A DNA stretch of 19,929 nt, from the NCBI GenBank assembly GCA_964583985.1, contig CAZOYD010000063.1, forward strand, positions 1 through 19,929. Direction: 5' to 3'. Position 1 is the stretch's first letter. Each line of letters starts with the position of its first letter. The notes under the pieces are model-generated. The model saw only the letters and a program-made list of their open reading frames with translations. It was not told the origin of the DNA and searched no databases. The translations under genes and the position numbers were made by a program. Shown here in pieces: positions 3,622 to 13,253 of the stretch. The stretch comes from an uncultured archaeon (lineage in GTDB: Archaea; Asgardarchaeota; Lokiarchaeia; Sigyniarchaeales; SOKP01).

Positions 3622-6420
3622 TTACTTCATCATCTTTTTAGTTTTTATTCTGAATGTAGCAATGACGTTGGGATCTAATAAAATTTCTATAGAATTTGCT
3701 AAAACTTTAGTAATTGTTGCTTTTATCTCTCTCTCAGGCGCTTCTTCTAAAAAATTTACAATTTTAGCTTCCAAAATGGACATTTTTTCATAAAACCTCA
3801 ATTCACCATTCTCGGAAGATGATGAGATGTTGTATACTCGCACAATTATATCATTACCTTTATCTGATTTTTTCAATGCACTTAGGATGATGTTCGAATT
3901 ATTAATCTCAAGAAAACTTAATTCAGGAGGGAGATAGGAACCGATAGTTTTCTCGAGAGGTTTATCAAAATACGATAATATCCCGAATGGTTTTATTACA
4001 GCCTTATCAGCGGCTCTCATTGAAGAACTTACAATTGATGGGAAAACCACCTTGAGAGGATTGTTGATTTCTTTTCCAGCGTGATGAATTTTAGCATCAA
4101 TCCAATTAGAAGCTCCTTCTTGAGTAATCATGGTAATTTCAAATACATGCTTACCAATGCATTGAGCCTCAGGAGTATTTAAATCAGGTCCAGCATTGCT
4201 AGCTCTTGTAGTTAAATCGTGTCTTGATAACCACTCAATGCATCTCAGTAATGTTATTGCAAGTGTAATCGTTTCGTCAGCATTTTTTAACGCTTCGTAT
4301 TCAGGTAAACCCTTATTGATCACGGCAAACGTTCGTTCATTGGTGCTAACAGAGACAAAATCCTTTTGATGATTTGTTGGTAAGGGTTTTTGAGCCCATT
4401 TTTCAGCGATGGGAAGATTTATGTTTCTTGGAATCACGTAAAAATGGCTATCACAATCCACTATCTTGGTTTTCATCTTAGTAGGAAATAACACTCTAAT
4501 ACGATGGTCCTTGCTGTTATTCTCAAGTAAGACCTTGAAATCAATACGCTTAATACCTCTATATAAAGTAATGTAAATTGATATCAAGTTAGGAACAAGA
4601 CAAGCATCTCTACTATATCTATCCTCAGTTAAGGATGATGGCAGATTCAAATTTGATTCAATCTTAATCGTTTTTTGGGAGAACCCATCAATATAGGGTT
4701 CTATATTCAAAAGTTCAAGGTCTTCAGATGAAAAATGTAAATCTGTTTGATTTTCTTGAGGGGCTGCAAAGTCATATTCATCACCCCAATCTCCTACATC
4801 TTCAAAGTAGCAGACATTTTCATAGATTTCATTAATTTCTTTATCTAAAACTTCGATGATCCCTTTTGAAGAAATCTGCACCTTATAAAATTCATTTTCA
4901 ATGGAATTTTTGGTCAAGCTCAATAATGAATCTTTTATTTCGAATTCTTCTGCTACTTGGTCAGGGATCAAGTAGAACACCTTATACCCGCAAGCTGGTA
5001 CTTCCTCTATAAAACTACAGAAATGACTCATCGAAAAGACCGTTTGATATCGTGGTTCTTCACTTACGTGTCTCACTTGATACGGGATGGATTTCCCCTT
5101 AGAATCCGCTATAATGAAATCTCCCGGTGACTTTATTGTAGCATTCTTCACGTGTGAAAAGATGTTAAAATGAATGATGTCCTTTCTTTTCCATGGAAGG
5201 GGATTGTAAACAATAAATGGAATTTTATTTTCAGTAGTATCATATTTTATCAGATCCATAAGATATAACGAGGTATTTTTGAATATTTCTTCTCCTATTT
5301 GCTCAGCCCAATCAAACCTGGTTTTCATTTCATCATGAACTTGGTCGATAGAGCACCCACAGATACTATCATGAGGATGATTTTTGATTAACCATTTTAG
5401 TCCAGTAAGAATATAACCTTGCGGGTACCTAAATTCATTGTAATCATCAAGTGCCCAGGTTATCGCAGCAAGAGGTTCAGTATATTTTTCATATAAATAT
5501 TCAATCGATGTATTTCGTTGTTTTATCCACATTCTTGCTGAAAGTACGCCTGATAATAGGTGAGCATGTTTGCCACCCCTAAGTTCTCCTTGAAATGAAT
5601 TCAATTTTGGTTGAGAATCTAAAATTTTACTGACAAAATATTCCACATCATTTTGTTCCATGAATTTTTCAGGATGTTTTTTATTCCATTGTCTCACGAT
5701 TTCAGGAATTTCTGGTTTAGCTTCATGATGATCTGAACCACTATTAAGAAGAATAAAAGGCGTAGCAGTATATTTCTCAAAGTACGATATGACTCTTTTC
5801 ATTTTAGATAACGCTGCCTTATATTCTCCGTTAATTTTTTTTATGCTTATATCAGCGACAGATCCATAACTCAAAATCAATAGAACACCCAGAATTGACG
5901 CTGCATTTCCAGGAGAATTCCACCAAAATTCTACATTTAAGTTATTATCTTCAAATTCATTACCAAAACCCCTCCAAAATAGAACCGCGGGTAGTTCGAA
6001 TCCACTCAAAATTTGGGGTAATTGTGCGATGTGGCCGAAGGGGTCCGGTATGTAGCCTGCTTTCATCACCTTGCCATATTTTTGAGAGAGTTGATAACCA
6101 ATTTGCAAGTTTCGAATTAAAGATTCACCACTGACTAAAAATTCATCGGGTAAAACATACATTGGACCGATTGATAACCGATTTTCTATGATATAAGTCC
6201 TGATTTCTTGCTTTAACTCCGGACGGACTTCCAAATAGTCTTCTAGCGGTATAACTTGTCCATCTAACATAAAATTTTTGTAGCTTGGATCCGTTTTTAA
6301 GATGTTCATTAATTTATCCATCATTAAAACTAATCTTGCTCGATATTCTTGAAAGGGGAGATACCATTCACGGTCCCAGTGAGTTTCAGGCACTATAATT
6401 ATATGAGTCGAATTAACCAT
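3622..6420 (-). CDS. Glycoside hydrolase family 38 alpha-mannosidase (MngB/AMS1-like)
   Basis: ETHWDREWY (Zn ligands), LDGQ, PDEFLVSGESLIRNL, YIPDPFGH (nucleophile Asp) and HPHDSICGCS. The 932-aa length is typical of the family. Confidence 0.95.
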   Translation of the reverse strand: MVNSTHIIIVPETHWDREWYLPFQEYRARLVLMMDKLMNILKTDPSYKNFMLDGQVIPLEDYLEVRPELKQEIRTYIIENRLSIGPMYVLPDEFLVSGESLIRNLQIGYQLSQKYGKVMKAGYIPDPFGHIAQLPQILSGFELPAVLFWRGFGNEFEDNNLNVEFWWNSPGNAASILGVLLILSYGSVADISIKKINGEYKAALSKMKRVISYFEKYTATPFILLNSGSDHHEAKPEIPEIVRQWNKKHPEKFMEQNDVEYFVSKILDSQPKLNSFQGELRGGKHAHLLSGVLSARMWIKQRNTSIEYLYEKYTEPLAAITWALDDYNEFRYPQGYILTGLKWLIKNHPHDSICGCSIDQVHDEMKTRFDWAEQIGEEIFKNTSLYLMDLIKYDTTENKIPFIVYNPLPWKRKDIIHFNIFSHVKNATIKSPGDFIIADSKGKSIPYQVRHVSEEPRYQTVFSMSHFCSFIEEVPACGYKVFYLIPDQVAEEFEIKDSLLSLTKNSIENEFYKVQISSKGIIEVLDKEINEIYENVCYFEDVGDWGDEYDFAAPQENQTDLHFSSEDLELLNIEPYIDGFSQKTIKIESNLNLPSSLTEDRYSRDACLVPNLISIYITLYRGIKRIDFKVLLENNSKDHRIRVLFPTKMKTKIVDCDSHFYVIPRNINLPIAEKWAQKPLPTNHQKDFVSVSTNERTFAVINKGLPEYEALKNADETITLAITLLRCIEWLSRHDLTTRASNAGPDLNTPEAQCIGKHVFEITMITQEGASNWIDAKIHHAGKEINNPLKVVFPSIVSSSMRAADKAVIKPFGILSYFDKPLEKTIGSYLPPELSFLEINNSNIILSALKKSDKGNDIIVRVYNISSSSENGELRFYEKMSILEAKIVNFLEEAPEREIKATITKVLANSIEILLDPNVIATFRIKTKKMMK

Positions 6421-6552
6421 AATTATAAACTTGTATATTTAATTGGAGAAGGTAATTTAAATTGGTTTAAATGGTTTTTTAAAAAAGGAATTTAGTTATT
6501 TTTATCGGAATTCAGAAAAAAACTAATAAATTGCCCGATATTACCGATTATT

Positions 6553-7227
6553 ATGCAAAAAAGTATCAAAATTTTAACTAACCGACCTCTCCTTGCAGCA
6601 TGGGCAGGTATGATTGGACCCATTCTCTTCGGTGTTATATTCACAGTTGAGAGTTAGCTTCGTCTCGGTTATGACCAATTTGAAATGTATATCAGTGTAC
6701 TGTCGCTTGGTCCACGCGGTTGGATTCAAATTGTGAATTTCATTGCGTTCGGTACGCTTTTTCTCGTGTTTTCATGTGGTATTGCCACTGAGTTTCGAGT
6801 AAAAAAAGCATCGCGGGTGGGACCCATGCTGTTCGTAATCATTGCGATTTGTTTATTTTTTTCTGGTCCTTTCGTAATGGATCCCATGGCTAACTTTTCA
6901 GACCAGATGACTTGGCATGGCATAATACATAATATCTTAGGAGTAATCGTGTTTTTACTCTCCCCTGTTAGCTGTTTTGTATTCTTGCGCCATTTTCGTA
7001 AAGATTCAAATTGGCAATCGCTTCGATCATGGACTTTTGCGGCGGGAATGATCATTACTGGAGCAGTTGTGGTGCTAGCCATCGCGCAAAAAAGTGCAAT
7101 AGTAGCGCCTAATGCATTAACGGATTGGACGGGTTTTATTCAACGAATAGCACTTATCACGTACTTATGTTGGTTATTCACCTTCGCATTGGTATTCAGA
7201 AAGCAAATTAAAAGGGATAATAGATAA
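6553..7227 (+). pseudogene. DUF998-family membrane protein interrupted by an in-frame TAG at 6655-6657
   Basis: The frame of ORF 6685..7227 extends upstream to ATG 6553: MQKSIKILTNRPLLAAWAGMIGPILFGVIFTVES*LRLGYDQFEMYISVLSLGPRGW. That extension supplies the first TM helix and the (P)GY...IS.L motif of DUF998. The downstream part has FVMDP and HGIIH and a GFIQR motif. Confidence 0.75.
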
Positions 7228-7256
7228 AAAAAATCGTTGGATATTCACATTAGTAT

Positions 7257-8765
7257 TTAAATTATTGATTTTCCCACTACACTTTTATGAGGTTTTTTTC
7301 CTAATAATCTCAATAAAGATGGTACCATATCTGTCGTTTTACAATATGGCAACTCCGTTGTTGGGAGTTCTGGCGATCCACCAATTATAAATGGCACGAT
7401 CATTGATTTTCGCAAGCAAATGTCGTGGGAGTATTGATGAGGAGCGACAGTTTTACCATGTTCATAACTGAACCCATCTATTCCTAAAGTGGATATGATG
7501 ATATCGCACGAGCGGGGATTTTTGAAATATCGTGGTATTTGATCAATTATCATTGGAAAATCTATGTGATTGGTTCCTTCCAACCAAGAGTTAATATCAT
7601 GAAATTTTCCATTTAATAAGACAGCGGAACGTTCATCGCGTTCATATCCATATAATTCGAGATTTTCGAAAACATATTTCGTTTTCTGATTCTTTCCATG
7701 GTCTTCATATTCAATTCTTCCTTCATGAATCTGGAATCCCTCATCTCGATATCGTATATGGATCGTTCCTTTATCTGGAGTGTTGCTATCATCACGATAA
7801 TACATGTATTTTACCCCAGGGATCTTCCAAAGCGTTTTAAATATATCAATATTCGATTTACCGGTTCTACTTAGTTTAAAATCTTTCATCTCTTCGATGG
7901 TTGGATGGAGGTGCCAATTTTTTCCATGAAAATTAAAAAACCCAACGCACCCAAAATTCGCATCAAAATCCCCAGTACCATTCTTAGGATTATATTGTGT
8001 CAGTCCCACTTCATTAAAAAACGGCTCAAGATCATGCATCTTCTCTGTTTTGTAATTTCCATGATCAGAGATGATCCCTATTGCTGTCGAATCGTTATAT
8101 CCTGTTTCTTTTAGTGTTTGGATAATATTTCCAATACCGGCATCTGCTTTAATTATTTCGTTTATATATTCTGGATGATCAAAGCCTCTATTGTGCATCA
8201 AATCATCGGTTTTAGGAACATACGCAGCAGTGACGATGGGAGCTTCATCAAATTGGAACTGCTTTGGGTTCTTAAATGTGTTTTCAACTGTTTTAAGAAT
8301 CGAAGCGGTGGTGTATTCCTCCGGGGGAACAAATGTTGACCCGCGATTAATCAAGTTCAAAGAACTCAGAAAATTACCTTCTCCCGCTTGTTCAAAAATG
8401 GTCTTAACATTTACCCCGATATCCGTATTTATCTTGCGGATATGTCGCGCAGTACCGTAATTATGGATTGCCGGAAATCTCTCTTCTTCTGTCGGAGGAT
8501 CAGATCTTCCAACCCAATGATACAACGGAATACCACTTCCATCTTTTGGGTAATACCCCGAATAAGCTCCTAAAAGGATATTGCTATAACATGGAAATGT
8601 AATGCTTGGAAAGGATGTGACACAATTTTGGCAAGAGATCCCATCCCGTGCTAATTTAGCTAAGTTTGGAAGCTTACCATTGTGCATCAAATCAAATAGA
8701 TGGGATGCTCTCACATCATCCATCAAAATTAAGATAACACGATCAATGGCTCCTTTATTAGTCAT
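7257..8765 (-). CDS. Alkaline phosphatase superfamily protein (type I phosphodiesterase / nucleotide pyrophosphatase-like)
   Basis: ILILMDD, TSFPSITFP (Thr nucleophile), DDLMH, IISDHG and C-terminal SHD metal-ligand motifs. Confidence 0.9.
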   Translation of the reverse strand: MTNKGAIDRVILILMDDVRASHLFDLMHNGKLPNLAKLARDGISCQNCVTSFPSITFPCYSNILLGAYSGYYPKDGSGIPLYHWVGRSDPPTEEERFPAIHNYGTARHIRKINTDIGVNVKTIFEQAGEGNFLSSLNLINRGSTFVPPEEYTTASILKTVENTFKNPKQFQFDEAPIVTAAYVPKTDDLMHNRGFDHPEYINEIIKADAGIGNIIQTLKETGYNDSTAIGIISDHGNYKTEKMHDLEPFFNEVGLTQYNPKNGTGDFDANFGCVGFFNFHGKNWHLHPTIEEMKDFKLSRTGKSNIDIFKTLWKIPGVKYMYYRDDSNTPDKGTIHIRYRDEGFQIHEGRIEYEDHGKNQKTKYVFENLELYGYERDERSAVLLNGKFHDINSWLEGTNHIDFPMIIDQIPRYFKNPRSCDIIISTLGIDGFSYEHGKTVAPHQYSHDICLRKSMIVPFIIGGSPELPTTELPYCKTTDMVPSLLRLLGKKPHKSVVGKSII

Positions 8766-8897: not shown

Positions 8898-9995
8898 ATG
8901 AGTCAAGTTGAAGAACAAAATTTCGTCGTAGGGATCTTTGGAGATAATTTCGAACTAAGGCAACTCATAGGACAATCCTTAGGTGCTCCGGGTACAAAAA
9001 GCGATCTGCTTTTTTTTAATCGCTTAGATATAGCATTAAATCACGTGTTTTGTGCCATAACCCCTGTTGATTATCCTGACAAAATTAAGCCATTTTTACA
9101 AGCATTATCTATTTCGAACATCCATATATTAGTAATCGACCTCGAAAACGGCTTGAATGCCACCATAGGGGAAATTCTCGTTGGTCTGGATTTATATCAC
9201 AGTTTATTTAACACTAAAGTTTTAGCTGTTATAGATAACATCAATTCCAAGACGGAGTGGAAATTAGCTGAAATCAAAGCAAAACTTACGACCATCCTAA
9301 AAACAACAAGTCTAAATGATACGGAAATCATCGAAATTAGGCATAAAGAAGATTATGCCAAGTTGAAAATGAAGATTGTTGAATTAGGCTCAGAGATAAA
9401 AGAACCCCCTTCTATAAATAATGTCAAAACTAAAGTGTTAATAGACCATGCTTTTCCTGTGAAAGGAATCGGAACTGTAATATTAGGTGTAGTTAAAGAA
9501 GGAACTATTTCTGCAGGGCAAATGGTAGAGATCGTCGGGTATGAGGACATGAATAGGAAAGTTATAATTAGGAGCATTCAAAAACAGGATAGGGTGTTTA
9601 AAACTGCCCAAGTTGGAGATAGAGTGGGATTAGCTCTTAAAGGAAACATTTCACCCGAGGATGTAGACCGTGGCAATCTAATCGCAAGTCAAGGGATGTT
9701 TGTGAACGAAAAAAAAATAAATGCCATCGTCCAAGTTAATAAATTTTATGTTCCTAACGGAGGTACTGTAAAACCTTCTGATGGGATTCAATATTTTGGA
9801 ATGGTAGACCTTAAAATGTCTCCATTAAAATTCGAATCAGGAGAAGAAATTAAACCCGGAGCGTCAGGAAATGTCGTGCTTCACTTTGAAAAAAAGCTTT
9901 ATCATGATGGAACGGGTCTTAAAGGTATTATTACAGAACTTAATAAATTTAATGGTAAATTAAGAATCCTTGGATTTTTCCATCAAGTAATGTAG
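8898..9995 (+). CDS. Archaeal SelB-like translation factor (aSelBL) with degenerate G domain
   Basis: EF-Tu/SelB domain II signature IDHAFPVKGIGTVILG...IRSIQ...GDRVGLALKG. The N-terminus is shortened, lacks an intact GxxxxGKT P-loop and has GAPGTKSD and YPDKIKP, as in aSelBL. Confidence 0.82.
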   Translation: MSQVEEQNFVVGIFGDNFELRQLIGQSLGAPGTKSDLLFFNRLDIALNHVFCAITPVDYPDKIKPFLQALSISNIHILVIDLENGLNATIGEILVGLDLYHSLFNTKVLAVIDNINSKTEWKLAEIKAKLTTILKTTSLNDTEIIEIRHKEDYAKLKMKIVELGSEIKEPPSINNVKTKVLIDHAFPVKGIGTVILGVVKEGTISAGQMVEIVGYEDMNRKVIIRSIQKQDRVFKTAQVGDRVGLALKGNISPEDVDRGNLIASQGMFVNEKKINAIVQVNKFYVPNGGTVKPSDGIQYFGMVDLKMSPLKFESGEEIKPGASGNVVLHFEKKLYHDGTGLKGIITELNKFNGKLRILGFFHQVM

Positions 9996-10013: not shown

Positions 10014-10937
10014 TTAGCTCGAATAAGATCTTAGTAAATTTAGTACAATTTGATTCACCAATTTCTCTATGACTTCTTTATTAAAAGTTTGAGAAGCACA
10101 AACTAACGAGTCAAGGTTTTTTAATTTTATGAATAATTTCTTTTGGATCATTCTTAAAAATTTATCTTGTAAATAGATCAAATAAGGTTCTCCATCTTTA
10201 TATTCTTGAGCTTTGTCGACTTTTGTAATGTGATAATATATCCTGTAGGATTCATAGATCAAGTTTACATCAAAATCCTTAGTTTTTGATTGTACGATTA
10301 TATTTTTATTCTTATCTGTCAAAAAGCATATAGACTCTGAATAAAGTTCGAGATTTCGATCCAGAATCTCTTTCAATACAAGAGTTTCTTTTGAGAGGCT
10401 ACTTAATATTTGTGATATTGCGTCTTGAAGGCTATATAAATAATTCTCTGCAATACTGGTAAAATAGATATCTGGTTTTACAGGAAGATTGATAATATTT
10501 TGAATTTGAAGCGTGAATATCCTTAGATTATTTCTTATTTCCTCGGGAATCAAATCAATTTTATGAAATAAAACTATAAATTTCGGATTTTGACCATCAC
10601 TTGTTGCAATCTTATAGATCTCACTGATTTCATCGCTAATTTCTAATGAAAAGTTATGCCAGAGATTATAATCTAGTATGTATATTACCGCATCAACACT
10701 CCTAAAAACATATAGGGTTTCTTTTTCATCTATTATTAGATTAGCTAGTTCTTGACCGGATGTATCAAATATAGTTAATTCTAAATCTAACCATAAATAA
10801 TTATGAGTTTCTATTCCTCGAGTAGGCTGAAGAGCAGTTCCTAACATGGTTTTAGGATCCATTCCTTCGAAAATTATGTCCTTTACGGTAGTCTTGCCTA
10901 CTCCCGCCCTACCTAAAAAAAGCAATTTTTTAGCCAT
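10014..10937 (-). CDS. Rag/Gtr1-like small GTPase with C-terminal roadblock-like domain
   Basis: G1 GRAGVGKT, G2 PTRG, G3 DTSGQ, and the Rag-diagnostic G4 HKID and G5 TSI. A ~120-aa C-terminal alpha/beta region (ICFLTDKNKNIIV) resembles roadblock. Confidence 0.88.
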   Translation of the reverse strand: MAKKLLFLGRAGVGKTTVKDIIFEGMDPKTMLGTALQPTRGIETHNYLWLDLELTIFDTSGQELANLIIDEKETLYVFRSVDAVIYILDYNLWHNFSLEISDEISEIYKIATSDGQNPKFIVLFHKIDLIPEEIRNNLRIFTLQIQNIINLPVKPDIYFTSIAENYLYSLQDAISQILSSLSKETLVLKEILDRNLELYSESICFLTDKNKNIIVQSKTKDFDVNLIYESYRIYYHITKVDKAQEYKDGEPYLIYLQDKFLRMIQKKLFIKLKNLDSLVCASQTFNKEVIEKLVNQIVLNLLRSYSS

Positions 10938-11174
10938 GATGAATTACTTCCTTCAAATTATCATTTTTAATGATGAAAGAAATATCGAAAAACTATCCAA
11001 TACAATAGTCATTTTTCTCTTATTTAAATTTAAATAGTAGAATGCTAAAGTTTCTCTCTTAATGAAATTTAGACAATAGTTAATTTCTATCTTTTTTTTG
11101 CCTGAAAGAATATTAAATTAGTAGATTATCTTTAAATTATATATATAATAGAATAAATCTCTACTCACGCAGAG

Positions 11175-11226
11175 TATTTCATCAAATAAACCTCCACAGT
11201 GGTTTTTTTATTTGAATCATTAAATA
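11175..11226 (-). promoter_or_regulatory. Putative eukaryote/Lokiarchaeota-type SECIS element in the 3' UTR
   Basis: Minus strand reads UAUU-UA-AUGA-U-UCAAAUAAA-AAAA-CCACUGUGGAGG-UUUAUUUGA-U-GA-AAUA. It shows an AUGA/GA core, a U.U pair, a perfect 9-bp stem, unpaired apical adenines, a possible CCA/UGG mini-stem and a short lower helix UAUU/AAUA. AUGA begins 13 nt after the TAA of a gene with an in-frame TGA. Confidence 0.72.
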
Positions 11227-11233
11227 AGATTTA

Positions 11234-12160
11234 TTATTCATTGCAATCAATTGATTCAAACGAATTTATTTTGATGAAGGCTTCCTCTTGTTTATTTCGT
11301 TGTTCTGATTTAACAGATCTATTCACTTGTGATAAATATTTCATCGCATTAGTTTTCCCATTAATTATATTCTCAATTAATTCTTCTTTACTGAGACCTC
11401 CAGAGATGACAAGAGCGGTTTGAAAAGACTGATCCGGTTCTAAAGTTTTGAATTTAATTTGTAACGCAGATAAAATTTCTCCTGGTTTGCCATAAAGTGT
11501 ATTTGAAAGATTTAATTTTTCAGTATTAATATTAAAATCCTTAGTTAGACACGTTTCATAATTCGTTGATTTGGAGATAGGAGAAAATCCCGCATGAAGT
11601 CCAGTATCGTCAAATTGATATAACACATCGTGTTCTTCATCATAACCGGAAGAATCATTATCGAACCCATCCAATCCATTGATATCGAAATCAAATACGA
11701 AATACATCGAAAATTCTGTTAAATTATAGTCAGAAATGTTTTTTAAGGTAAAGAATGTGTTTATGTAAGGTATTTTTGGTTTATTAAAGATATCGATATA
11801 AAGTCTAATCAGAGAATGTTCTTTCTTAAACTCTTGTTTAAGTATTTTTTTTTCACTCATCAATTTCTTCAAGTATTCCTTAATGTCAAAATCAAGGGTG
11901 ATTCTATTAATAAAAGTGCCAATTCGAGTGTTAACCATTTTGTAGATAGGTGTAGGTTCGATATTTTTTAGAACCACTGGAATTGTCCCGATATTTTTAC
12001 CAATTAATTTAAAACTAAACCAAGGACCAGCCATTTCTTGTTCTGTTAAATAGAGTATGTATTTGTTCATGTATGTTATTTCTTTAATTGAAAACCCCAT
12101 CAAATATCCAGCAGTATTTCAAGTTGCTAAAATTTCGTTGAAACTAACCTTTAATACTAT
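11234..12160 (-). CDS. Hypothetical beta-rich protein; candidate selenoprotein (in-frame TGA at 12121-12119; ORF-track version is 11234..12103)
   Basis: The 289-aa ORF is solid. The frame continues upstream as (I/M)VLKVSFNEILAT-TGA-NTAGYLMGFS to an ATA at 12160, which lies 9 nt downstream of SD AGGAGGT. A SECIS-like hairpin follows the stop. The extended protein would be 308 aa. Confidence 0.7.
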
Positions 12161-12169
12161 TTTTAAAAG

Positions 12170-12177
12170 ACCTCCTT
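12170..12177 (-). promoter_or_regulatory. Strong Shine-Dalgarno sequence (AAGGAGGT)
   Basis: Plus-strand acctcctt. It is spaced for a start at about 12160, not for the TTG/ATG at 12103/12100. Confidence 0.7.
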
Positions 12178-12275
12178 AAATTGTATTTTATGAATTAATA
12201 ATAAATGATGATATTTGATAATAATTAATAAAACCCTAAAAAAACATTTGGGTTAATTTTAAAAAACTAAATGGT

Positions 12276-13253
12276 CTAAACCTTTTCAATGAATCGATAA
12301 GCTATGTATAAGAAGGCTTCGTTGACATTTTCTCCACTTTTTGCACTTGTCATAATAAAATGAAATCCATACCGTTTTGCGATGTTTTTAATATCCTCTT
12401 CTGATGATACAATCTCATCTTTTAAATCGGATTTATTTGCTACTATTACCATGGGAATGTTTGAAGGTACAGCCTTTTTAATGTCATCATACCAATTATC
12501 AATACTCACGAGATTATTAAGTCTAGTTCGATCGACGACAATAAAAGCACCACTTGCTCCTTCATAAAATCTCTTGCGATATGGACTCATTGCGATTGAT
12601 TGGCCTCCAATATCCCAAATTACAAAATTTAAGGTCGTTTCTTCTCCCATAACAATGGTTTTTTTAGTTATATCAACTCCAATGGTGCTAATGTAAGTAT
12701 CGGTAAAATTATTTTCAACAAATCGTTTGATGAGTGAAGTTTTTCCTACTTGATAATCACCAGTTAAAATAATTTTCGAAGTGAAAATTCCTTTAGGTAA
12801 TTTACCCCCTCGAGTTTTGGATAAAACCTTAATAATTTCAGGAATTTCTATAGAGATGCTTTCATGACCCTCTAAAAGCAATTCTATTTTCCCTGCAATA
12901 TGCTCTGAAAACACTCTCAGTTCAATATCTGGGGTATTTGGATCTGCAATGGTAGTTAAAATTGAATGAGGCCCCATACTACAATAGGCAAACTTCTTAT
13001 CGGCCATGGAGGTAACATTAAAAAAGTTATTTTGTGTTTGGTATTCCGTCTTAATTCTATCAATGTAGATATCTAAAAATGCTGAAATAGCTCCTATAAC
13101 TAAATCTGTATCTTGTTCATCCTTCATTTTACTCTCAGATGCGATGATAAATCCATCTCGGTCACATATAGCAACCGCAGCAGCTCCATCAACATTAAAC
13201 ATATAATTCTCAAGTATTTTTTTTAAAAGATCGATATTTGGGAGATTCTCCAC
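12276..13253 (-). CDS. Roadblock/LC7-like domain fused to a Rab-like small GTPase
   Basis: N-terminal NVDGAAAVAICDRDGFIIAS roadblock signature. The C-terminal GTPase has G1 GDYQVGKTS, switch I YISTIGVD, G3 WDIGGQ, RFYEGA, G4 NKSD and G5 TSAK. GTG start with a GAGGG SD. Confidence 0.92.
   Translation of the reverse strand: MENLPNIDLLKKILENYMFNVDGAAAVAICDRDGFIIASESKMKDEQDTDLVIGAISAFLDIYIDRIKTEYQTQNNFFNVTSMADKKFAYCSMGPHSILTTIADPNTPDIELRVFSEHIAGKIELLLEGHESISIEIPEIIKVLSKTRGGKLPKGIFTSKIILTGDYQVGKTSLIKRFVENNFTDTYISTIGVDITKKTIVMGEETTLNFVIWDIGGQSIAMSPYRKRFYEGASGAFIVVDRTRLNNLVSIDNWYDDIKKAVPSNIPMVIVANKSDLKDEIVSSEEDIKNIAKRYGFHFIMTSAKSGENVNEAFLYIAYRFIEKV

What the first reader, a model, noticed from the sequence alone, without database searches (positions are those of the whole stretch)
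11175..12177. Candidate unrecognised selenoprotein: SD, in-frame UGA and 3'-UTR SECIS all on one gene
Seen in sequence: (1) The perfect SD AAGGAGGT (12177-12170) has no canonical start near it, but it sits 9 nt before an in-frame ATA at 12160. (2) From that ATA the frame reads VLKVSFNEILAT-TGA-NTAGYLMGF and joins the 289-aa ORF, so a single TGA at codon 14 is the only interruption. (3) A SECIS-like hairpin begins 13 nt after the stop. Established: Lokiarchaeota encode selenocysteine and use eukaryote-like AUGA/GA SECIS elements downstream of the CDS. Their familiar selenoproteins are redox enzymes (SelD, HdrA, VhuD/VhuU, peroxiredoxin-like). Inference: this gene encodes a 308-aa Sec protein of a family unlike those. 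It has no CxxU/UxxC motif and a beta-rich sequence. Standard gene callers would truncate it and hide the Sec residue.
Basis: partly seen in the sequence, partly recalled or inferred. Interest (0 to 1): 0.92.

Follow-up and report, generated by a model that had tools for sequence, protein, structure and literature searches.

The report
Overlooked Asgard selenoprotein gene with SECIS
A gene that databases list as a 288-residue hypothetical protein of Loki-type Asgard archaea really starts 20 codons earlier at an AUA codon and almost certainly reads a UGA stop codon as selenocysteine, which adds a widespread protein family to the short published list of archaeal selenoproteins.

Summary
Observation confirmed and interpretation supported. 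The minus-strand gene 11234-12160 has a strong SD, an ATA start, one in-frame TGA (codon 14) and a structured 3' UTR element.

- **Conservation:** all 32 same-genus genomes with a match, and 14 of 14 sampled family genomes, keep the TGA. Codons on both sides show the same third-position variation as the downstream gene.
- **Sec/Cys pairing:** the TGA aligns with the second Cys of CxxC in one family of the same order. It aligns with the U of CxxU in at least three other Asgard lineages.
- **RNA element:** it fits the published Asgard type II eukaryote-like SECIS model and shows compensatory changes. It has the same AUGA-stem-AAAAA-stem-GA layout as elements behind VhuD and VhuU selenoprotein genes of this genome.
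- **Machinery:** tRNA-Sec, SepSecS, an EFsec-like gene, a PSTK-like gene and Sec-containing SelD are present.
- **Protein:** a stand-alone beta-supersandwich with no Pfam family. In two families of the order its gene follows a Roadblock-Ras GTPase gene.
- **Function:** unknown. My best guess is a selenol-based redox centre.
- **Novelty:** the family is absent from the published Asgard selenoprotein lists I could read.
- **Earlier scan notes:** the scan had already flagged it in other genomes (e1-5564738, e1-5528912, e1-4857868, e1-5498827).

The parts
12170..12177 (-). Shine-Dalgarno sequence AAGGAGGT
   Evidence: Read. GGAGGT is kept 7-9 nt before the start codon in all 26 same-genus loci that include this region and in genus g18.
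12158..12160 (-). Probable non-canonical start codon ATA (AUA)
   Evidence: The codon is ATA in 25 loci, ATC in 1 and ATT in 1. In 9 loci a stop lies two codons upstream, so no ATG, GTG or TTG is available. Other genera of the family use GTG or TTG at or near this place. The start has not been shown experimentally.
11234..12160 (-). Full coding sequence: 308 codons including Sec14, plus TAA stop (11234-11236)
   Evidence: Translation. Entropy by codon position is 0.45/0.18/1.03 for codons 1-20 and 0.47/0.24/1.12 for codons 21-50, against 1.33 in the upstream non-coding DNA. The AF2 model has pLDDT 88.9 and pTM 0.88.
12119..12121 (-). In-frame TGA, codon 14, read as selenocysteine
   Evidence: Invariant TGA in 25/25 aligned genus loci. 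'1 TGA' is reported in every same-genus match and in 14/14 other genomes of the family. It aligns with Cys in the CxxC family f2 and with U of CxxU in f4, f12, f21 and g20.
12098..12100 (-). ATG of Met21, the start used by all database gene calls
   Evidence: The best 120 database proteins are 260-289 aa long, so none includes the 20-residue extension. The 50%-identity representative matches query 21-308. No SD precedes this ATG.
11243..11245 (-). Codon of Cys306, invariant near the C-terminus within the order
   Evidence: Invariant column in alignment A2 across f1, f2 and f4. It is missing in the shorter f12 and f21 forms.
11155..11232 (-). Whole 3' UTR SECIS-like element: outer helix, K-turn core, upper stem, A bulge, ministem and side hairpin
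   Evidence: Model R1 matches 11150-11232 at 90.5 bits, E 4e-17. On 26 distinct orthologous sequences 95.5% of cells are paired. Eight pairs show changes on both sides, against 1.2 in shuffles (0/500). Slid controls pair only 28-54%.
11217..11220 (-). AUGA, 5' half of the SECIS core
   Evidence: Invariant in alignment A1. The same motif sits at the same distance from the stem in the VhuD and VhuU elements of this genome.
11207..11215 (-). Upper stem, 5' arm (pairs with 11182-11190)
   Evidence: Helix 2 is 100% paired, and 4 of its 8 pairs show compensatory double changes in L014 and L025.
11194..11206 (-). Unpaired A run (11203-11206) and apical ministem CCA-CUG-UGG (11194-11202)
   Evidence: The A run is invariant or nearly so. 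The ministem sequence differs between loci but stays complementary: CCA/TGG, TCA/TGA, CCC/GGG, CCT/AGG.
11179..11190 (-). Upper stem 3' arm (11182-11190) and U-GA, the 3' half of the core (GA at 11179-11180)
   Evidence: Invariant TTTGATGA block in A1. G.A/A.G tandem geometry is inferred from the sequence and was not tested.
11164..11174 (-). Side hairpin CUC-loop-GAG inside the 3' strand of the lower part
   Evidence: Helix 4 is 98.7% paired but nearly invariant, so covariation says little. It is not part of the published SECIS models.
12276..13253 (-). Upstream neighbour on the same strand: Roadblock/LC7 + Ras-family GTPase
   Evidence: Pfam Ras 1e-36 and a weak Robl_LC7 hit. It lies directly upstream of the orthologue in the genus loci and in 8 loci of family f2, at 45-50% identity. 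Pfam confirms it in a complete f2 genome.

Best explanation
The gene at 11234-12160 (minus strand) encodes a 308-residue selenoprotein.

**How it is translated**
- Ribosomes are recruited by a strong SD and start at the near-cognate AUA codon. This step is inferred.
- UGA at codon 14 is decoded as selenocysteine by Sec-tRNA(Sec) and the archaeal EFsec.
- Recoding is directed by a type II eukaryote-like SECIS that begins 13 nt after the stop codon.

**The protein**
- It is a stand-alone beta-supersandwich.
- Sec sits at the tip of the first beta hairpin, in what is ancestrally a CxxU/CxxC motif.

**Likely function (inferred, not shown)**
- The selenol is a redox-active centre.
- In this lineage, which has lost the first Cys, it probably cycles through a selenenylsulfide with the invariant Cys306 on the flexible C-terminal tail.
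- The protein probably works together with the Roadblock-Ras GTPase encoded just upstream.
For: **Shown**
- TGA is conserved in all 32 same-genus genomes with a match, at 68-91% protein identity, and in 14/14 further genomes of the family.
- The coding signature runs across the TGA.
- Sec/Cys pairing holds. Family f2 has CxxC with Cys at this column. Lineages f4, f12, f21 and genus g20 have CxxU.
- The 3' element is supported by compensatory changes. The covariance model built from it finds nothing in the Cys-form (f2) loci, nor in the CxxU loci of f4.
- A pattern scan of the genome found 16 hits, against 4 in the reversed control. The hits include the elements directly behind three 2-Sec VhuD genes and a VhuU gene.
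- In lineage f12 the stop codon overlaps the AUGA of a hairpin whose 7-8 bp stems differ completely in sequence yet stay paired.
- The machinery is present. tRNA-Sec scores 59 bits and ARAGORN reads a tca anticodon. SepSecS scores 467 bits next to it. There are also an EFsec-like gene, a PSTK-like gene and SelD with its own TGA.
- Fold: pLDDT 88.9. Z 18-20 to the N-terminal supersandwich domains of GH15, GH94 and GH116 enzymes.
- The Roadblock-Ras gene is a conserved neighbour in families f1 and f2.
Against: - There is no direct evidence of selenium incorporation or of the N-terminus.
- Rfam SECIS models give no hit even at E <= 10. The same was published for Loki SECIS elements (PMC4989117).
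- AUA initiation is not an established archaeal start.
- The model is least confident at both ends, which hold Sec14 and Cys306 (block pLDDT 61-68). I could not measure their distance.
- The GTPase neighbour is not found next to the f4, f12 or f21 genes.
- Families f2 and f4 have four Cys/Sec positions, which would also fit a metal site.
Confidence: 0.85

Rival explanations
1. The Sec/Cys residues are metal ligands rather than a redox pair. The N-terminal CxxU/CxxC knuckle, a Cys before the GPWF motif and the C-terminal Cys would form a Zn-, Fe- or Ni-type site, with Sec as one ligand. The gene would still be a selenoprotein gene.
For: Families f2 and f4 each have four conserved Cys/Sec positions: CxxC/U, a Cys next to the conserved Gly of GPWF, and the C-terminal Cys. 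A database group has CxxCxxC and no C-terminal Cys. Lineage f12 has CxxUG, which resembles a knuckle motif (the resemblance is from my own knowledge).
Against: This genus and two sister genera keep only Sec14 and Cys306, which is too few for a tetrahedral site. One f12 locus has also lost the first Cys.
Confidence: 0.2
2. Two products are made. A Sec-containing long form starts at AUA and a Sec-free short form starts at the invariant AUG of codon 21. The weak start plus the early UGA would then act as a selenium-dependent gate.
For: Met21 is ATG in 25/25 genus loci, while homologues in other families have Phe or Arg there. The UGA lies only 13 codons from a near-cognate start.
Against: No SD or other recognisable signal precedes AUG21. 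The hairpin holding residue 14 is part of the predicted fold, strands 3-14 and 18-30. Purifying selection on codons 1-20 equals that on the rest of the gene.
Confidence: 0.12
3. The TGA is a true stop. A conserved 13-codon upstream ORF precedes a 288-aa protein that starts at Met21, and the 3' RNA is a terminator or another regulatory structure.
For: All public gene calls start at Met21. Rfam finds no SECIS.
Against: Codons 15-20, between the TGA and Met21, are conserved in the same frame with synonymous changes. Homologues have one uninterrupted ORF with Cys at this column. Four other lineages carry TGA at the same column, and in f12 and the sister genera of f1 a SECIS-like element of their own follows the gene. 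The RNA shares its layout with the elements behind the known selenoprotein genes of this genome.
Confidence: 0.03

Closest known systems
Lokiarchaeial selenoprotein genes with eukaryote-like SECIS (lokiSECIS; Asgard type II eSECIS-like model, typical of selD). Sources: Mariotti 2016 PMC4989117, Huang 2024 PMC11227280.
   Same: - 3' UTR element close to the stop.
- AUGA_GA core.
- Upper stem of 8-9 bp.
- Run of unpaired A, 3-bp ministem and 3-5 nt apical loop.
- No SBP2 is needed according to those papers.
- The Sec machinery is present in the genome.
   Different: - The protein belongs to none of the seven listed families: SelD, FrhA/VhuU, HdrA, FrhD/VhuD, Prx-like, AhpF-N and DsbA-like.
- The RNA carries an extra conserved side hairpin and a covarying outer helix, which make a three-way junction.
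- The start codon is AUA.
- The UGA lies only 13 codons from the start.
N-terminal beta-supersandwich domains of GH15 glucoamylase/glucodextranase, GH94 phosphorylases and GH116 glucosidase (1lf6, 1ulv, 2cqs, 8rf9, 7w2t), and more distantly galactose mutarotases
   Same: The fold matches over residues 1-280. Z is 18.6-20.4, rmsd 2.4-3.2 A, with 212-233 residues aligned. Mutarotases score Z 12-13.
   Different: - Sequence identity is only 11-14%, and there is no Pfam hit.
- The protein stands alone, without the catalytic (alpha/alpha)6 domain of those enzymes.
- It carries a Sec/Cys motif on the first hairpin, which I do not know from those domains.
Thioredoxin-fold CxxU/UxxC selenoproteins, such as the Prx-like and DsbA-like families listed in review PMC13188914
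   Same: The ancestral motif is CxxU/CxxC, with Sec/Cys exchange between lineages.
   Different: The predicted fold is an all-beta supersandwich, not a thioredoxin fold. In this genus the motif is reduced to a lone U.
Genes with near-cognate AUH start codons behind a strong SD, such as bacterial infC with AUU (recalled from my own knowledge, not tested here)
   Same: An AUA/AUC/AUU codon at normal SD spacing, with no canonical start available.
   Different: I know of no established natural AUA start in archaea, and here it is inferred from comparative sequence only.

Membership tests
Selenoprotein gene (UGA recoded as Sec) | In-frame UGA conserved among orthologues | tested here: met
   TGA in all 32 same-genus genomes with a match, in 25/25 aligned loci, and in 14/14 other genomes of the family.
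Selenoprotein gene (UGA recoded as Sec) | UGA aligns with Cys in homologues | tested here: met
   Column 14 of A2 is invariant Cys/Sec. Family f2 has CxxC. Lineages f4, f12, f21 and g20 have CxxU.
Selenoprotein gene (UGA recoded as Sec) | Protein-coding constraint on both sides of the UGA | tested here: met
   Entropy by codon position is 0.45/0.18/1.03 for codons 1-20 and 0.47/0.24/1.12 downstream. Codons 2-5, 12, 15 and 18-20 show synonymous changes.
Selenoprotein gene (UGA recoded as Sec) | Genome encodes tRNA-Sec, SepSecS, PSTK, EFsec and SelD | tested here: met
   tRNA-Sec scores 59 bits (cut-off 47) with a tca anticodon. SepSecS scores 467 bits. SelD scores 184 bits and has its own TGA. 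The EFsec-like gene (233 bits) and the PSTK-like gene (158 bits) fall below the curated cut-offs of bacterial or methanogen models but are the best full-length hits.
Selenoprotein gene (UGA recoded as Sec) | Selenium shown in the protein | not testable with these tools
   This needs 75Se labelling or mass spectrometry.
Asgard type II eSECIS-like element (Huang 2024 model) | Core GA_[G/A]A (usually AUGA_GA), upper stem 7-15 bp with at most 2 mismatches, bulge, ministem 2-8 bp, apical loop 2-6 nt, within 600 nt of the stop | tested here: met
   Read from the sequence. AUGA / U-GA core, 9-bp perfect stem, AAAA bulge, 3-bp ministem, 3-nt loop and 3-nt 3' bulge. AUGA lies 13 nt after the stop.
Asgard type II eSECIS-like element (Huang 2024 model) | Structure maintained in evolution | tested here: met
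   95.5% of cells paired, 8 pairs with changes on both sides, 0/500 shuffles reach this. The alignment was fitted to the model, which favours the structure.
Eukaryotic and bacterial SECIS families of Rfam | Match to an Rfam SECIS covariance model | tested here: not met
   No SECIS family among the matches at E <= 10 over 10500-12700. Published Loki SECIS elements also fail such models.
Seven reported Asgard selenoprotein families (SelD, FrhA/VhuU, HdrA, FrhD/VhuD, Prx-like, AhpF-N, DsbA-like) | Sequence membership in one of these families | tested here: not met
   No Pfam family at E <= 0.1 and no NCBIfam family at E <= 0.1. The fold is a beta-supersandwich.
GH15/GH94/GH116 N-terminal supersandwich, galactose mutarotase-like fold | Structural match over the whole domain | tested here: met
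   Z 20.4 (8rf9_A, 2.6 A, 229 aligned), 20.0 (1ulv_A) and 19.5 (1lf6_A). Foldseek E 1e-7. This shows a shared fold only, not a shared function.
GH15/GH94/GH116 N-terminal supersandwich, galactose mutarotase-like fold | Sequence-family membership (e.g. PF06165) and an attached catalytic domain | tested here: not met
   No Pfam hit. The protein ends after two to three short helices at residue 308.

The most novel reading that the evidence does not exclude
The gene is one half of a selenium- or redox-sensing switch for an Asgard small-GTPase module. A weak AUA start followed at once by a UGA would make synthesis of the full protein depend on Sec-tRNA supply. Internal AUG21 might give a Sec-free form. 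The selenol on the first hairpin would report redox state to the Roadblock-Ras GTPase encoded upstream. [quoted passage not shown]
Probability: 0.15. Interest if true: 0.85.

Novelty: new member of a known kind. Interest (0 to 1): 0.7.

Why it matters
- Archaeal selenoproteomes are thought to be very small. Seven families are listed for all Asgard archaea, all found by homology to known selenoproteins (PMC11227280, PMC13188914).
- This adds a lineage-specific family with a non-thioredoxin fold. It is present as Sec in at least four Asgard lineages and as Cys in others, and every public gene call I saw truncates it.
- Homology-driven surveys therefore undercount Asgard selenoproteins.
- The gene supplies new SECIS variants for the archaea-to-eukaryote SECIS question. 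These are a three-way-junction type II form here and a stop-overlapping type I form in another lineage.
- It gives a well-supported comparative case for AUA initiation in an archaeon.
- It ties a selenoprotein to a Roadblock-Ras GTPase gene.

Tried and rejected
- **Rfam scan:** at E <= 10 it found no SECIS family, only chance snoRNA and miRNA rows.
- **Model R1:** built from this gene's element, it finds only this element in the genome. The weak hits on C28, C16, C27, C10 and C1 lie behind no TGA-containing gene. It is therefore family-specific and cannot serve as a general SECIS finder.
- **SelD 3' UTR:** I could not draw a convincing SECIS by eye.
- **Family f4 (CxxU):** a relaxed pattern scan over 640 nt found no eSECIS-like element. 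Only a conserved GC-rich 6-bp hairpin sits right after the stop, and its role is unresolved.
- **Family databases:** Pfam and NCBIfam gave nothing for this protein or its distant relatives.
- **Protein tree:** four well-separated clades, but the deep order is unresolved (82/41 support). One origin of Sec cannot be told from several.
- **Neighbour genes in f4 and f2:** they are not paralogues of this family. The PhoU-like neighbours in f2 and f12 are unrelated to each other.
- **Atlas look-up:** The short form gave only hypothetical-protein clusters and weak GH94 leads.
- **AUH starts elsewhere in the genome:** the survey gave two candidates. I mis-framed one (C44) and did not pursue it.
- **Model coordinates:** not available to scripts, so the Sec14-Cys306 distance was not measured.

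Full report
**1. Observation**

On the minus strand the window reads AAGGAGGT (12177-12170), a 9-nt spacer, then ATA (12160). Thirteen sense codons follow, then TGA (12121-12119), six more sense codons, and ATG (12100). From there the ORF runs to TAA at 11236-11234.

AUGA begins thirteen nt after the stop. It is followed by a perfect 9-bp stem, an A run, a small apical stem, and U-GA on the 3' side. The region folds better than its shuffles, with z = -2.95.

**2. The upstream 20 codons are coding and the TGA is kept**

I searched 60 related genomes in six frames with the extended protein. Matches covered residues 1-308 with exactly one TGA in every one of the 32 same-genus genomes that had a match, at 68-91% identity.

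At the nucleotide level, 25 aligned loci show an invariant TGA. Codons 2-5, 12, 15 and 18-20 show purely or mostly synonymous variation. Entropy by codon position is 0.45/0.18/1.03 for codons 1-20 and 0.47/0.24/1.12 for codons 21-50. The non-coding DNA further upstream scores 1.33.

A profile search of 120 genomes of the phylum found the TGA form in 14 of 14 other genomes of the same family, including three further genera.

**3. Sec/Cys pairing and range**

The column of the TGA has different residues in different lineages:

| Lineage | State at the TGA column |
|---|---|
| Family f2 of the same order (three complete genomes) | second Cys of CxxC, uninterrupted ORF with a normal ATG |
| Family f4 | CxxU |
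| Sister genus g20 | CxxU |
| f12, a lineage of about 242-aa proteins | CxxU in 6 of 7 loci read; one (L078) has lost the first Cys |
| f21 | CxxU |
| This genus and two sister genera | first Cys lost, lone U |

The automatic atlas labels the f12-like proteins mostly Thorarchaeota. All five f4 and f2 genomes I tested have a tRNA-Sec.

The family is small. It has 34 representative clusters at 50% identity among 1.84 billion proteins. Public calls are truncated right after the TGA in every lineage that has it.

A protein tree separates the clades well but does not resolve their order. The number of Cys/Sec switches therefore stays open.

**4. The RNA**

Twenty-seven orthologous 3' UTRs share one element. 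Its parts, in order, are:
- an outer helix;
- AUGA;
- an 8-9 bp upper stem;
- a run of A;
- a 3-bp ministem;
- the 3' arm;
- UGAUGA;
- a small side hairpin;
- the closing strand of the outer helix.

On an Infernal alignment 95.5% of cells are paired. Eight of 19 pairs show changes on both sides, against 1.2 in shuffles (0 of 500 reach this). Sliding the partners drops pairing to 28-54%. That alignment is fitted to the model, which favours the structure. The double changes in the upper stem are already visible in the plain MAFFT alignment.

The element meets each criterion of the published type II eukaryote-like SECIS model for Asgard archaea (criteria). Model R1 finds nothing in the loci of the Cys-form family f2, nor in the CxxU loci of f4.

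I ran my own pattern scan of the whole genome for AUGA-N-stem-AAA...stem-N-GA. It gave 16 hits, against 4 in reversed sequence. The hits include the elements directly behind three VhuD-like genes with two TGA each and a VhuU-like gene. This element therefore shares its layout with the SECIS elements of known selenoprotein genes in the same cell.

In lineage f12 the gene's TGA stop overlaps the AUGA of a hairpin. Its 7-8 bp stems have unrelated sequences in different genomes but remain paired, and the loop starts G(U)AAA. That loop motif is the one Huang et al. report for Thorarchaeia.

**5. Machinery**

| Component | Location | Score |
|---|---|---|
| tRNA-Sec | C27 | 59 bits, tca anticodon |
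| SepSecS | next to tRNA-Sec | 467 bits |
| EFsec-like gene | C27 | 233 bits |
| PSTK-like gene | C53 | 158 bits |
| SelD with in-frame TGA | C24 | 184 bits |

**6. Start codon**

In nine genus loci a stop lies two codons before the ATA. No ATG, GTG or TTG occurs between it and the TGA.

The first codon is ATA in 25 loci, ATC in one and ATT in one. It always lies 7-9 nt after GGAGGT. Genus g18 has the same arrangement. Genera g19 and g20 have GTG or TTG there instead. Families f2 and f4 have ATG or GTG and no such GGAGGT with normal spacing.

AUA initiation is therefore the only reading that fits, but it is inferred.

**7. The protein**

The AF2 model (pLDDT 88.9, pTM 0.88) is one beta-supersandwich followed by short helices. 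Its closest solved relatives are listed below.

| Chain | Protein | Z | rmsd (A) | Residues aligned |
|---|---|---|---|---|
| 8rf9_A | GH94-type domain | 20.4 | 2.6 | 229 |
| 1ulv_A | GH15 glucodextranase | 20.0 | 2.4 | 212 |
| 1lf6_A | GH15 glucoamylase | 19.5 | 2.9 | 216 |
| 7w2t_A | GH116 glucosidase | 18.7 | 3.2 | 233 |
| 2cqs_A | GH94 cellobiose phosphorylase | 18.6 | 3.0 | 227 |
| 3mwx_A and similar | galactose mutarotases | 12-13 | about 3.3 | about 200 |

Sequence identity is 11-14%, and no Pfam or NCBIfam family matches.

Sec14 ends the first strand, at the hairpin tip. Invariant residues include a DFD..G motif and, within the order, Cys306 three residues from the C-terminus.

The gene directly follows a Roadblock-Ras GTPase gene in this family and in f2. 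It does not in f4, f12 or f21.

**8. Mechanism**

- **Shown:** the gene structure, the recoding signals and the machinery.
- **Inferred:** Sec insertion at UGA14 directed by the 3' element; AUA initiation.
- **More weakly inferred:** a redox role of the selenol with Cys306 as partner, and cooperation with the GTPase.

A metal-site reading is the main functional rival, because f2 and f4 have four Cys/Sec positions. A true-stop reading is excluded for practical purposes by sections 2-4.

**9. Known and new**

Mariotti 2016 ran de novo searches in the first Loki metagenomes and found only HdrA, VhuD, VhuU, PrxL and SPS. Sun 2021 found HdrA, Prx and MvhD. Huang 2024 searched 409 genomes by homology to known selenoprotein families and lists seven families. 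A 2026 review repeats that list.

This family is in none of these papers. The recoding mechanism is the known one, so I class the finding as a new member of a known kind.

Earlier notes of this scan, which I read after my own tests, describe the same family in other genomes and agree.

**10. Limits**

- There is no experimental evidence.
- The SECIS of f4 is unresolved.
- The function is unknown.

Noticed in passing
G000:C52:7962-8162 (+), locus L058:663-863: A 66-codon ORF encodes one predicted membrane helix followed by GGG-U-GC. It has an in-frame TGA, and its TGA stop is followed at once by a type I AUGA-stem-AAAAA-stem-GA element. Matches with exactly one TGA occur in 13 of 24 same-genus genomes (counting this one), at 32-76% identity. 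It looks like a second unlisted small selenoprotein. Earlier scan notes describe similar membrane micro-selenoproteins.
   Followed up: partly
window 8898-9995 (+): A 365-aa EF-Tu-family protein whose best NCBIfam model is SelB (81 bits, positions 64-263). Its P-loop is degenerate and it has only EF-Tu domain 2 in Pfam. It may belong to the archaeal SelB-like (aSelBL) group. In several genus loci (e.g. L012, L013, L026) it sits just downstream of the selenoprotein gene; in L012 the two genes are convergent.
   Followed up: partly
L080 (G100:C6:672500-683500), genes at 5233-5991, 5998-6495 and 6541-7875: In lineage f21 the CxxU homologue is followed by a GcvH-like gene and then by a convergent SepSecS gene (410 bits). 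This hints that the family could be tied to selenium metabolism in some lineages.
   Followed up: no
L031, L034, L037 (family f4), first 40 nt after the stop: The three CxxU genes of family f4 lack an AUGA_GA element by my scan. They share a GC-rich 6-bp hairpin (CCCAAG / CTTGGG, 5-nt loop) right after the stop. This may be a different kind of recoding signal.
   Followed up: partly
whole genome G000: GGAGGT precedes a canonical start of an ORF of 80 or more codons at only 81 of 1109 sites. A full SD is therefore rare in this genome, and its strict conservation before the ATA start stands out.
   Followed up: partly
G000:C11:13194-13670 (-), C13:36124-36618 (-), C23:20787-21263 (-), C43:2119-2304 (+): Three VhuD/MvhD-like genes with two in-frame TGA each, and a VhuU-like gene. 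Each is followed within 22 nt of its stop, or overlapping it, by a type I SECIS-like element with an 8-bp stem and an 11-nt loop that starts AAAAA.
   Followed up: partly
window 10014-10937 (-): A Gtr1/RagA-like GTPase gene lies directly downstream of the SECIS. It is present there in only some genus loci (L016-L018), so it is not a fixed partner of the selenoprotein gene.
   Followed up: partly
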